Shown here piece by piece: positions 48,001 to 51,000 of a stretch of DNA of 64,000 bases. Position numbers: made by a program. This DNA is from Negaprion brevirostris (taxonomy: Eukaryota). Numbering within the stretch: the first letter of the stretch is position 1; the number at the start of each line of letters is the position of its first letter. The stretch covers positions 66,384,063 through 66,448,062 of the forward strand of contig JARDVH010000163.1 of the NCBI GenBank assembly GCA_030324005.1, read 5' to 3'.

Positions 48001-51000
48001 TTAGACTGGATTAAACTCAATGAAACCCGGATCAACCCAATTCCTTTTGCAAATTTAAACATAGCCATTGTTCATTGAACAATGGGATTGTATGAAATGT
48101 TTTAGCTCTTCTAAGCTTTTAAACGATTTTAGCTAGGCCCCACAATGGTTTGTCAAGTTGAGTAACGGGACAAAAAGCAGCCCCTTGTCGTATCCAGGGA
48201 CATGTCTTTGCCAATGGGAGTCCAACTGCTGGCACACATACCTGGCAGCTTCATTTTATAGTAATGAATACTTGGAACAATTTAAACTTTGGATCTGAAT
48301 GAAACATTTGATTTCTGGATGGTTCCCATCAGAATACTGTAAAAACTGATTTGAGGACTTGGGTAAATCGTCTTTGGAGAAATGTGGTAGGAGGCCCTCA
48401 AGAAAGACTGGCCATGATTGTTCCCTTTGGAGAAGTGAATGTTAAGGGGGGACTTGATTGAGGTGTTTAAAATTACTAAGGATTTTGAATGGGTAAATGA
48501 GAAGAAATTGTTTCCACTGACAGGAAGTTCAGGAGCCAGAGGACATTGATTTAAGATAATTGGAATAAGAACCAGAGGGAAGCTGAGAGAATATCGTTAC
48601 ACAGCGAGTTTTTATAATCAGGAATGCACTGCTTGAAAGGATGACACAAGCAGAATTGATAATCCCTTCTGAAAGGAAGTTGCATATACATTTGAAAAGA
48701 GATATTTTTCAGCAATGTAAGAAAATGTGGGAAATGAGTCTAATTGGATAGTCCTTTCTAGTACATGATAAACTGAATGACCTCCTTTTGTGCTGTATTA
48801 CTGTGAGACCATTAACTCTATGGCCCTCCATTAGACAACTTGTATGTCAATACTCAAGTCCAAGCACTACCACCATAGAATCGTAGAATCTCACAAACAA
48901 GATGCCTTCTTGTTCTTTTTGCTGCCAAGTCTTCTCATTACAAACAGCTCAAATGTTTGATGGTTAAAGAGAAGGGGGTTGGAGTAGAATTTTCCAATCA
49001 TGCTAGTAGAAGGTGTACGTGGCGGGGGCGTGGGATTTTATGTGAGTGCAAAATTTAAACTTGCACATTGTGAAAACAGGGTGGCGATTGCCCACTCCAG
49101 ACTTCAATGTTGGCATGCATTTCCCAATGCGGCATGTCAGGAACAGTAAATGAATATATTTGAACATCATGAATGTTCAAATGCTCATTATGAAGTTGCT
49201 CACCAGAATCACACCACTGTGCTGGATCAAAAGGCCATGCCAGCATCTAATTAGATTGGCATCATTCACGATTGGATAGAAGGGACAGGCACCTGGCAAA
49301 TTGCACTTTCTTGTGACTTCATGGTGTAGTCACCTCCCTCATGTTGCCCATTGCTCACAGCTCCCCCGAATCTGTGCCTGGCTCTGCAGGCAATAATGCA
49401 ATGATTTCAGGGTGGTTTCAGAACTAAGGTTCTACATTCCAGATCAATGGTAAGGCATGGGGTGAAATTACATGAACTGGAGGGTGTCATAATAATGAAG
49501 GAAAAATATCAACTTATGTCTGGAAATATTGAACTTTAAATAAGACTTGTGAGTTTAAAAAAATTGATATACAAACCAAAGATGGGTGAGGATGTTACAT
49601 CAGTCACAGACTGAATTGCTGGGGAAGATGCAGGGGAGCGAGGAGTGACATTCTGAGAGACAATGGAATCACCTTGTTTCCAGACAAAGATATATCTAAA
49701 GCATCCAGAAGCTTGTTGCCATCTCTGGTGGAGGCAATGGGACATAATGGCAGAAGGATATAATGTCATTAAGAAATATTTGTGAATAATATCCAAATGA
49801 ACTTTTGGATTTGGCCTTCCAGGAACATATATAAACCAAGAAAAAAGCTAACTGAAAAGCTCCCCGAAGTGTTTCTGTATATTTGTGTAAGAACTAGTAC
49901 TGGGATGTTGGAACATGTGTGACAGAGAAGCAAAATGCCAGCTAGTAACTATGGTCCCCCGCAAAAGTGATTTTCAGCTATACCTCCATCTCTTTCTCTG
50001 ATTGCTGAAGTCAGTAAGTCAGTAAAGAGCACAGCTGATATGGAAGCAGGGAAGCTTTTCCACCAAACTACAGAAATCTTCAAATCCAACCATTTGTCTA
50101 CTGAAGGTTGTCTTACTGGAAATTCAGATCATAACTGCCACACTGCTCAATAACCTACACCTCGAGTCAAGGAATGTTTTGTACATTTTTTNNNNNNNNN
50201 NNNNNNNNNNNNNNNNNNNNNNNNNNNNNNNNNNNNNNNNNNNNNNNNNNNNNNNNNNNNNNNNNNNNNNNNNNNNNNNNNNNNNNNNNNNNNNNNNNNN
50301 NNNNNNNNNNNNNNNNNNNNNNNNNNNNNNNNNNNNNNNNNNNNNNNNNNNNNNNNNNNNNNNNNNNNNNNNNNNNNNNNNNNNNNNNNNNNNNNNNNNN
50401 NNNNNNNNNNNNNNNNNNNNNNNNNNNNNNNNNNNNNNNNNNNNNNNNNNNNNNNNNNNNNNNNNNNNNNNNNNNNNNNNNNNNNNNNNNNNNNNNNNNN
50501 NNNATCGATACCTCCACATATTCAGGGATCTGGTGGGACATATCTGTCACATTCTCCAAGTGTTGATGCTTGGGGAGTGGAAGGGCATCTATTGTCAATG
50601 GCTACCAAAGTTACCACAGTTCTAACCACTACACAAGTGGCTCCTTATTGGGCTCCACTGGGGACCTCTGTGGCATCACTCAACCTTCCACTCACAAGAC
50701 GCAAATCCTAGTGCTTGAGCTGCGTGGCTAGCTTGATCTCTAATGACTGCATGTAATTCTGTGCCTTGGCAAAGAGAACATCTGTCAATGGATGCTCTCT
50801 TTGCCAAGGCACAGAATTACATGCAGTCACTCGAGATCAAGCTAGCCACGCAGCTCAAGCACTAGGCTTTGCTTCTGTTTCAGGTTTCCCCACAGATGGA
50901 GGGTGACATTGACTGTACTCATGTGGCTATATGAGCTCATGGCAAAAGCCAGGAAAGGATTCCATTTGCTCAATATGCAACTGGTCTGCAATGACATCAT

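What the first reader, a model, noticed from the sequence alone, without database searches (positions are those of the whole stretch)
50701..50872. Near-perfect 82-bp fold-back inside a long-dead Harbinger transposase
Seen: arms about 95% complementary with an 8-nt loop, lying between the TGDLCGI and GFP...IDCTHV motifs, while the surrounding transposase is heavily decayed. Inference: a recent template-switch inversion-duplication, or arms homogenised by conversion. Inside the crocc2 intron it would give a long hairpin of transposase sequence, a possible source of endo-siRNA or a proto-miRNA against Harbinger relatives.
Basis: partly seen in the sequence, partly recalled or inferred. Interest (0 to 1): 0.65.

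Follow-up and report, generated by a model that had tools for sequence, protein, structure and literature searches.

The report
Inverted duplication inside a dead transposon
A short stretch of a long-dead Harbinger transposon gene in a shark-like genome was copied backwards next to itself, probably by a DNA replication slip, leaving a long hairpin-forming scar that is real but most likely has no function.

Summary
The fold-back is there as described. The arms are 50697-50782 and 50791-50876, with 81 of 86 positions complementary and an 8-nt loop. This is far beyond chance: 40 simulated windows gave fold-backs of 9-16 nt, against 89 nt here.

It lies in a decayed HARBI1/Harbinger-like transposase on the + strand. 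That fossil sits in an intron of a rootletin-family gene on the - strand.

Comparison with a second fossil copy in the window and with 222 database proteins gives the following:
- The right arm and loop are the original coding sequence.
- The left arm is surplus. All 18 proteins that match on both sides show 74-80 bp of extra DNA there.
- The copy carries the right arm's own 1-bp frameshift (12 of 12 proteins). So it was made in place, after the gene had died.

This is the signature of a replication template switch (snap-back). An assembly artefact is unlikely because the arms differ at five sites and both flanks are collinear, but I had no reads to check it.

The stem is far too long for a canonical microRNA precursor, and no Rfam family reaches its threshold. 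A small-RNA role is untested. Overall this is an ordinary new example of a known kind of mutation.

The parts
50697..50782 (+). Left arm. This is the surplus, inverted copy of the right arm and reads as transposase only on the - strand.
   Evidence: tblastx matches copy B only in a minus frame. P0020 residues 78-90 match 50741-50703 on the - strand (E 0.092). No + strand protein match is confined to it.
50783..50790 (+). Loop TGTCAATG. It is probably a remnant of the original codons just before the DALF motif.
   Evidence: 92 bp are present where relatives have about 18 bp.
50791..50876 (+). Right arm. This is the original transposase coding sequence (DALFAKAQNYMQ, then RDQASHAAQALGFAS after a 1-bp deletion) and the source of the copy.
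   Evidence: Collinear with copy B and with 42 database proteins whose match starts at 50785-50800. -1 frameshift in 12 of 12 proteins. 39 of 41 relatives share its Ala at 50794-50796.
50624..50698 (+). Transposase piece upstream of the fold-back (NHYTSGSLLGSTGDLCGITQPSTHK), the helix-turn-helix region.
   Evidence: 72% identity to P0020 residues 33-57; tblastx to copy B.
50884..50925 (+). The GFP and IDCTHV motifs, with a frameshift between them. This is the start of the DDE domain and includes the first catalytic Asp.
50951..51421 (+). Decayed remainder of the DDE_Tnp_4 transposase domain, with 6 in-frame stops and internal deletions.
   Evidence: tblastn with P0034, P0004 and P0020.
50192..50503 (.). 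Run of N (312 bases) hiding the 5' part of the element. It ends 194 bp before the fold-back. I left it as it is.
37302..37765 (+). Comparator: the best-kept part of a second, less decayed Harbinger-like fossil (copy B). It has no fold-back.
   Evidence: DDE_Tnp_4 19 bits, below the cut-off of 24.8.
56717..56794 (-). Host-gene exon piece, Rootletin profile positions 1-26.
   Evidence: 24.9 bits, below the cut-off of 36.
35543..35641 (-). Host-gene exon piece, Rootletin profile positions 54-84.
   Evidence: 21.7 bits, below the cut-off.
27975..28148 (-). Host-gene exon piece, Rootletin profile positions 83-140.
   Evidence: 55.2 bits, above the cut-off of 36.

Best explanation
This is a real, lineage-specific inverted duplication inside a fossil Harbinger (HARBI1-like, DDE_Tnp_4) transposase. 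During replication or repair synthesis, a growing strand left its template near 50698. It copied about 85 nt of the neighbouring sequence (now 50791-50876) from the complementary or its own nascent strand, in reverse-complement orientation. It then returned to the original template a few bases upstream of that sequence.

The net result is that about 11 bp of the original were replaced by about 85 bp of inverted copy. This left a hairpin-capable palindrome with a 6-8 nt spacer. The event happened after the transposase was already frameshifted. The arms have since drifted apart at 5 of 86 sites, or some of those differences arose during error-prone copying.

The palindrome lies in an intron of a rootletin-family gene transcribed from the opposite strand, so the pre-mRNA would contain an 86-bp hairpin. 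The most likely biological consequence is none: a neutral scar, at most a substrate for double-strand-RNA editing.

What is shown: the anatomy, which arm is the original, that the copy was made in place, and that it was made after decay. What is inferred: the replication mechanism, neutrality and transcription.
For: 1. Structure and chance.
2. Which arm is original. tblastx against copy B aligns the right arm collinearly on the + strand and the left arm only as its reverse complement.
3. Surplus DNA. Of 222 database proteins, 166 match the region. Of these, 18 have matches on both sides of the left arm. All 18 show 74-80 bp (median 74) of surplus DNA between 50698 and 50791. No + strand match lies inside the left arm.
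4. Alignment test. Removing 50699-50783 improves the nucleotide alignment to copy B from a score of 104.5 to 125.
5. Made in place, after decay. 12 of 12 proteins show a 1-bp deletion inside the right arm. The arms align without gaps, so the copy was taken from the already frameshifted neighbour and not from an intact element.
6. Not a repeat family. The arms occur nowhere else in the window.
7. Real divergence. The arms differ at five sites, and at 50795/50778 the right arm keeps the family's Ala (39 of 41 relatives).
8. Junction. Two bases (AG, 50697-50698) are shared between the flank codon and the arm end, a possible microhomology.
9. Precedent. The four-point template-switch model describes replacement of a fragment by the reverse complement of a nearby one and the creation of hairpins (PMC5453318, passages). 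Single events of 28 nt and up to 83 nt creating or reshaping hairpins are reported in primates (PMC10710096, section 5).
Against: - No reads were available, so the assembly cannot be verified. The window has 16 runs of N, and one ends 194 bp upstream.
- No orthologous pre-event locus could be examined. The ancestral state is inferred from a paralogous copy and from proteins of other species.
- The differences between the arms are 2 transitions and 3 transversions, an unusual ratio for neutral drift, though with only 5 sites.
- The 9-mer TGTCAATGG of the loop also occurs 190 bp upstream at 50593-50601. A single switch-and-return does not explain this. It may be chance, or it may hint at a more complex event.
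- Neutrality is assumed, not shown.
Confidence: 0.78

Rival explanations
1. Assembly artefact: the fold-back was created by a chimeric read, gap closing or a graph error near the contig end, and does not exist in the genome.
For: The window is a gapped draft with 16 runs of N. The fold-back begins 194 bp after the run at 50192-50503. No reads were available.
Against: - The arms differ at 5 of 86 positions. An artefactual fold-back of one template should be identical.
- The inverted part is bounded. Both flanks continue collinearly with the transposase, so the contig does not run back along itself to its end.
- The loop is 8 nt, not an adapter.
Confidence: 0.08
2. Functional small-RNA locus: the intronic hairpin is processed into endo-siRNAs or a young miRNA that acts on Harbinger relatives or other targets.
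For: - It forms a very stable hairpin on either strand.
- It lies in an intron of a gene.
- Template-switch hairpins in introns are a documented source of new miRNAs in primates (PMC10710096, abstract).
- Many HARBI1-like proteins are predicted in shark genomes, so potential targets may exist.
Against: - The stem is 86 bp and the loop 8 nt, against a ~35-bp stem and a loop of 10 nt or more for Drosha substrates (PMC10710096, introduction text in the outline).
- An abstract seen in a search listing states that vertebrates lack long miRNA hairpins (PMC12553114).
- Another states that mammalian Dicer is adapted to miRNAs and limits RNAi from long dsRNA (PMC11239679).
- No Rfam family reaches its gathering score. 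An unrelated palindrome in the window draws similar sub-threshold miRNA hits.
- Copy B shares no nucleotide similarity with the arms.
- The differences between the arms show no compensatory pattern.
Confidence: 0.05
3. An older inverted repeat whose arms were kept alike by gene conversion or by repeated template-switch correction, so the low divergence understates its age.
For: Template switching between imperfect arms can homogenise them (PMC13100816 and PMC8604942, abstract starts in listings). The arms are far less diverged than the transposase is decayed.
Against: - Nothing requires it. A younger single event explains the same data.
- The arms share the frameshift of an already dead gene, so the repeat cannot be older than the decay.
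- 86-bp arms are short for recombinational conversion (my own knowledge, not tested).
Confidence: 0.06
4. A fragment of another copy of the same element family, or an unrelated fold-back element, inserted here in opposite orientation.
For: The window holds other fold-backs built from a repeat family and a second Harbinger fossil.
Against: - The left arm is 94% identical to its immediate neighbour and carries that neighbour's private 1-bp deletion.
- It starts 8 nt from its source.
- It has no other match in the window.
- Copy B is too diverged to be the donor.
Confidence: 0.02

Closest known systems
Template-switch mutations (four-point model; Loytynoja & Goldman 2017, PMC5453318; Monttinen et al. 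2023, PMC10710096)
   Same: A stretch is replaced by the reverse complement of a nearby stretch in one event. This creates a perfect hairpin from sequence with no prior symmetry, in an intron. (Passages; abstract and sections 5 and 6.)
   Different: - At about 85 nt the copied fragment is at the long end of what I read there (28 nt, and up to 83 nt).
- The host is a cartilaginous-fish-like genome, not a primate.
- The ancestral state is inferred from paralogues, not from an orthologous alignment.
- There is no evidence of a small-RNA product.
Classical quasi-palindrome correction (Ripley model, as summarised in PMC5453318)
   Same: Intra- or inter-strand switching of a nascent strand at an inverted repeat (passages).
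   Different: That model needs a pre-existing near-palindrome. Here, relatives show no such symmetry at this place: the left arm is simply absent.
Hairpin-RNA (hpRNA) and inverted-repeat endo-siRNA loci of flies and mouse oocytes (recalled; not read here)
   Same: A long near-perfect inverted repeat derived from a gene or transposon, able to give a long dsRNA hairpin.
   Different: Those loci are defined by their small RNAs and targets. Neither could be examined here, and vertebrate somatic Dicer handles long dsRNA poorly (abstract starts of PMC11239679 and PMC6391682).
Intronic inverted repeat pairs as A-to-I editing substrates (inverted Alu pairs; recalled)
   Same: An intronic fold-back of transposon sequence forming long dsRNA in pre-mRNA.
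   Different: Here one short local duplication forms the dsRNA, not two independent insertions. Editing was not tested.
Pfam DDE_Tnp_4 / 'putative nuclease HARBI1' proteins of sharks, e.g. P0020 (Scyliorhinus canicula)
   Same: The fossil aligns along its length with these proteins. Identity is 72% over the 25 residues before the fold-back.
   Different: The window copy is dead (stops, frameshifts, deletions) and carries the 74-bp net insertion, which none of the 18 spanning relatives has.

Membership tests
PIF/Harbinger transposase (Pfam DDE_Tnp_4, HARBI1-like) | Sequence similarity along the protein to DDE_Tnp_4-bearing proteins | tested here: met
   166 of 222 fetched proteins match 50504-51900 at E<=1e-3. 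5 of 5 checked relatives carry DDE_Tnp_4 above the cut-off. Source names for the relatives read 'putative nuclease HARBI1'.
PIF/Harbinger transposase (Pfam DDE_Tnp_4, HARBI1-like) | The window's own translation reaches the Pfam gathering score | tested here: not met
   7 single-frame pieces of copy A gave no DDE_Tnp_4 hit. The copy B piece scores 19 bits against a cut-off of 24.8. Membership therefore rests on the protein alignments and applies to a fossil.
PIF/Harbinger transposase (Pfam DDE_Tnp_4, HARBI1-like) | Open reading frame with the DDE catalytic triad | tested here: not met
   7 stops, at least 3 frameshifts and internal deletions. Only the first Asp (IDCTHV) is recognisable.
PIF/Harbinger transposase (Pfam DDE_Tnp_4, HARBI1-like) | Terminal inverted repeats and a 3-bp target duplication (feature recalled) | not testable with these tools
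   The 5' end lies in the N run 50192-50503, which I did not fill. The 3' end was not located.
Template-switch mutation (four-point model) | The novel fragment is the reverse complement of nearby sequence | tested here: met
   81 of 86 positions, 8 nt apart.
Template-switch mutation (four-point model) | It replaces a fragment of the ancestral sequence; one event explains the whole difference | tested here: met
   92 bp are present where 18 of 18 spanning relatives have 2-8 residues (surplus 74-80 bp). The alignment to copy B improves when the left arm is removed. The ancestor is inferred from paralogues.
Template-switch mutation (four-point model) | Pre-event state seen at the orthologous locus of a close relative | not testable with these tools
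Canonical miRNA precursor | Stem of about 35 bp with an apical loop of 10 nt or more (PMC10710096, introduction text in the outline) | tested here: not met
   86-bp stem and 8-nt loop.
Canonical miRNA precursor | Match to a curated miRNA family at its gathering score | tested here: not met
   The best hit is mir-3119 at 53.6 bits against 80, and the alignment is mostly compensated pairs. The whole window gives 0 matches at gathering. A control palindrome also draws sub-threshold miRNA hits.
hpRNA / endo-siRNA locus | 21-23-nt reads from the arms, and complementary targets | not testable with these tools
   No small-RNA data were available. The only in-window relative (copy B) has no nucleotide match to the arms.
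Rootletin-family host gene (CROCC / CROCC2) | Rootletin domain in exons flanking the site on one strand | tested here: met
   On the - strand: profile positions 1-26 at 56717-56794, 54-84 at 35543-35641 and 83-140 at 27975-28148. Only the last is above the cut-off. Exons were searched one by one.
Rootletin-family host gene (CROCC / CROCC2) | Assignment to the CROCC2 paralogue | tested here: inconclusive
   The exon search returned one unnamed protein.

The most novel reading that the evidence does not exclude
The hairpin was born in one template-switch step inside a transposon fossil. It is transcribed with its rootletin-family host intron and diced into small RNAs. That would make it a vertebrate (cartilaginous-fish) hpRNA-type locus, or a very young miRNA caught before stem shortening, possibly acting on still-expressed Harbinger/HARBI1-like relatives.
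Probability: 0.04. Interest if true: 0.55.

Novelty: new member of a known kind. Interest (0 to 1): 0.2.

Why it matters
This is a clean, unusually long example (about 85 nt) of a replication template switch creating a hairpin from scratch. Its source and its copy can be told apart because the source is coding sequence with many relatives. It extends such events from primates to a cartilaginous-fish-like genome. The window also holds other fold-backs, so hairpins of this size need not be rare here. Beyond that it is most likely a neutral scar. It would matter more only if small RNAs or RNA editing from the arms were found.

Tried and rejected
- **Pfam on copy A pieces.** Single-frame pieces of copy A gave nothing relevant. 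One search had failed on a stop codon in one reference, and I corrected the coordinates.
- **Word-based homologue search.** The search with copy B's 119-aa piece, longer lengths, found none.
- **Paralogue of the host gene.** The exon search for a paralogue name gave one unnamed hit.
- **Polarity of the arm differences.** I first thought the left arm kept ancestral bases at 50778 and 50783, because copy B has Val there. I dropped this for 50778, because 39 of 41 relatives support the right arm's Ala. Position 50783/50790 stays unresolved.
- **Link to another fold-back.** The 8-mer and 9-mer shared with fold-back 20165-20361 are not clearly above chance: 8 matches against 4.6 expected, and 4 against 1.4.
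- **A second element ORF.** A shared second ORF downstream of both fossils has only a marginal tblastx hit (E 0.007).
- **Not used.** Complex prediction, the structure tools and genome contigs (bacteria and archaea only) do not bear on this question.
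Full report
**Observation.** The sequence at 50697-50876 is a near-perfect palindrome.
- The repeat finder reports arms 50697-50782 and 50791-50876: 86 nt, 94% complementary, 8 nt apart.
- A script counts 81 of 86 complementary positions. The mismatches are at 50700/50873, 50706/50867, 50741/50832, 50743/50830 and 50778/50795, and the loop is TGTCAATG.
- It is not chance. In 40 order-1 Markov simulations of the window, the longest fold-back with a loop of 20 nt or less and at least 92% identity was 9-16 nt, against 89 nt in the real window.
- As RNA it folds at -163 kcal/mol on the - strand (z -21.2) and -154.2 on the + strand (z -24.1). 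As DNA it folds at -96.6 (z -19.6). In each case 0 of 200 shuffles did as well.
- The arms have no other copy in the window.

**What surrounds it.** Three-frame translation shows TGDLCGI at 50657-50677, GFP at 50884-50892 and IDCTHV at 50908-50925.
- Pfam finds nothing relevant in single-frame pieces of this copy. I therefore used a second, better-kept fossil in the same window, copy B at about 37302-38300 on the + strand, as a stepping stone.
- A 78-residue open piece of copy B found 1261 proteins at E<=1e-3 and 57 at E<=1e-10 in the representative library.
- Five of five of these that I checked carry DDE_Tnp_4 above the cut-off.
- The relative closest to the copy holding the fold-back, P0020, is named by its sources "putative nuclease HARBI1 [Scyliorhinus canicula]". 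Its 82 relatives at E<=1e-10 are almost all from sharks, rays and a chimaera, followed by amphibians.
- The window is therefore from a cartilaginous-fish-like genome and is not human. I did not try to identify the assembly.
- The copy is heavily decayed. It has 6 stops in the aligned frame over 50951-51421 and one more at 50932-50934. It has at least three frameshifts between 50791 and 50951, plus internal deletions.
- Its 5' part is hidden in the N run 50192-50503, which I left alone.

**Which arm is the original.** The right arm is the original and the left arm is extra.
- tblastx against copy B aligns 50624-50698 (…GDLCGITQPSTHK), then 50793-50903, then IDCTHVA, all collinearly on the + strand. 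The left arm matches copy B only as its reverse complement.
- I ran tblastn with all 222 fetched proteins against 50504-51900. Of these, 166 gave a match at E<=1e-3. Forty-four have a match ending at 50680-50710, 42 have a + strand match starting at 50785-50800, and 18 have both.
- In all 18, the DNA between the two matches exceeds what the protein needs by 74-80 bp (median 74). That is 92 bp present where about 18 are expected.
- No match lies on the + strand inside the left arm, and none was on a minus frame at that threshold.
- At a looser threshold, P0020 residues 78-90 (RDQANQESRAMGF) match the left arm on the - strand (E 0.092).
- Removing 50699-50783 raises the nucleotide alignment score against copy B from 104.5 to 125.
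- So the loop and right arm are the original coding sequence. The left arm is an inverted copy that replaced roughly 11 bp of it.

**Made in place, after the gene had died.**
- Twelve of 12 proteins with matches in both frames show that the right arm lacks one base between 50791 and 50835.
- The two arms align without a gap, so the copy inherited this private frameshift. It was therefore taken from the already broken neighbour, not from an intact or distant element.
- At the one arm difference that can be polarised, 39 of 41 relatives have Ala opposite 50794-50796. The right arm has Ala too, while the inverted copy would read Val, so the copy changed.
- At four of the five differing sites the right arm has C where the copy's complement has T or A. 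This fits ordinary C-to-T and C-to-A change in the copy, either during error-prone copying or afterwards. This point is inference.

**Mechanism.** The anatomy is what the four-point template-switch model describes: a fragment replaced by the reverse complement of a nearby fragment in one switch-and-return, which can create hairpins without a pre-existing repeat (PMC5453318, passages; PMC10710096, abstract and sections 5 and 6).
- A growing strand either snapped back on itself after passing the loop, or jumped to the opposite strand at 50876 and returned near 50784.
- The two bases AG at 50697-50698 belong both to the flanking Lys codon and to the arm end, a possible microhomology.
- I cannot tell which strand or which polymerase was involved.
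- The events I read about were 28 nt and up to 83 nt, so about 85 nt is at the long end. The length tables are in supplements I could not open.

**Age.**
- Arm divergence is 5 of 86 sites, or 5.8%. That is about 3% per arm if all differences arose after the event.
- As a rough inference of my own, 6 stops in 157 aligned codons imply on the order of 0.3 substitutions per site since the gene was intact, with a Poisson range of roughly 0.1-0.7.
- The fold-back is thus several-fold younger than the death of the transposase, but it is not new.
- Gene conversion between the arms is not needed, and I could not test it.

**Artefact?** The window has 16 runs of N, and one ends 194 bp upstream, so caution is fair.
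- A fold-back produced from one template should have identical arms, and these differ at five sites.
- The inverted part is bounded, with collinear transposase on both sides.
- The loop is 8 nt.
- I rate an artefact at under one in ten, but only reads can settle it.

**Host gene.** On the - strand there are Rootletin-domain pieces at 56717-56794 (profile positions 1-26), 35543-35641 (54-84) and 27975-28148 (83-140). Only the last is above Pfam's cut-off.
- The exon for profile positions 27-53 was not found among 139 - strand frames of 45 aa or more.
- The fold-back therefore lies in an intron, antisense to the transposase.
- Exons were searched one by one, and I did not build or search a joined spliced model.
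- The one exon-level database hit is unnamed, so CROCC versus CROCC2 stays open.

**Small-RNA idea.**
- The pre-mRNA would carry an 86-bp hairpin. That is not canonical pri-miRNA geometry, which is a ~35-bp stem and a loop of 10 nt or more (PMC10710096, introduction text in the outline).
- An abstract seen in a listing says vertebrates lack long miRNA hairpins (PMC12553114).
- Others say mammalian Dicer limits RNAi from long dsRNA (PMC11239679 and PMC6391682, abstract starts). Whether that holds in sharks is unknown.
- Rfam gives only sub-threshold hits: mir-3119 at 53.6 bits against 80, and mir-BART19 at 41.7 against 100. The alignments consist mostly of compensated pairs.
- An unrelated palindrome at 11000-11400 draws similar sub-threshold miRNA hits. 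The whole window has no match at gathering score.
- Copy B shares no detectable nucleotide similarity with the arms. Other possible targets could not be searched.

**Left unchecked.**
- Reads, orthologous loci, the rest of this genome and small-RNA data were all out of reach.

**One loose end.** The loop 9-mer TGTCAATGG recurs 190 bp upstream at 50593-50601, inside original coding sequence. By my estimate the chance of that is about 1%. It may be coincidence, or a trace of a more complex switch.

**Verdict.** The fold-back is a real-looking, in-place, template-switch inverted duplication in a dead Harbinger/HARBI1-like transposase within a rootletin-family intron. It is a new example of a known kind of mutation, most likely without function.

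Noticed in passing
window 37302-38300 (+): A second, less decayed Harbinger/HARBI1-like transposase fossil (copy B) in the same intron region. It has open pieces of 119 and 78 aa and no nucleotide similarity to the first copy by blastn, so it is probably a different subfamily.
   Followed up: partly
window 10953-11427: A 475-bp palindrome with an 11-nt spacer and about 84% arm identity, with small indels. It is unique in the window except for a weak match at 8446-8509. Its outer part resembles a short interspersed repeat I recall from shark genomes. It may be an older inverted duplication or a fold-back element.
   Followed up: partly
window 20165-20361, 35241-35416, 44800-44927 (also 11684-11760, 31470-31571, 31928-32027, 54001-54061, 54376-54425): A repeat unit of about 100 bp occurs at eight or more places. 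At three of them it is present as a fold-back with a 6-15 nt spacer and 80-86% arm identity. Either the family has a hairpin form, or fold-back duplication recurs at it.
   Followed up: partly
window 31347-31832 (-): A 161-aa open frame resembling the C-terminal end of a LINE reverse-transcriptase ORF (motif recalled). It has no Pfam hit.
   Followed up: no
window 38622-39137 (-) and 39182-39544 (-); 52482-52628 (-): Two open frames of 171 and 120 aa lie next to copy B and have no relevant Pfam family. There is a marginal tblastx match (E 0.007) to a stretch downstream of the other fossil. They may be remains of the element's second gene.
   Followed up: partly
window 50593-50601 and 50783-50791: The 9-mer TGTCAATGG of the fold-back's loop recurs 190 bp upstream inside the same transposase fossil. 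The loop 8-mer and the arm 9-mer TTGGCAAAG also occur together at the centre of the fold-back at 20255-20273. The counts are not clearly above chance.
   Followed up: partly
window, 16 runs of N (for example 35905-36872, 50192-50503, 59581-59821): This is a heavily gapped draft, with four runs of exactly 100 N and others of odd lengths. The exon for Rootletin profile positions 27-53 was not found and may lie in a gap or in a frame shorter than 45 aa.
   Followed up: no
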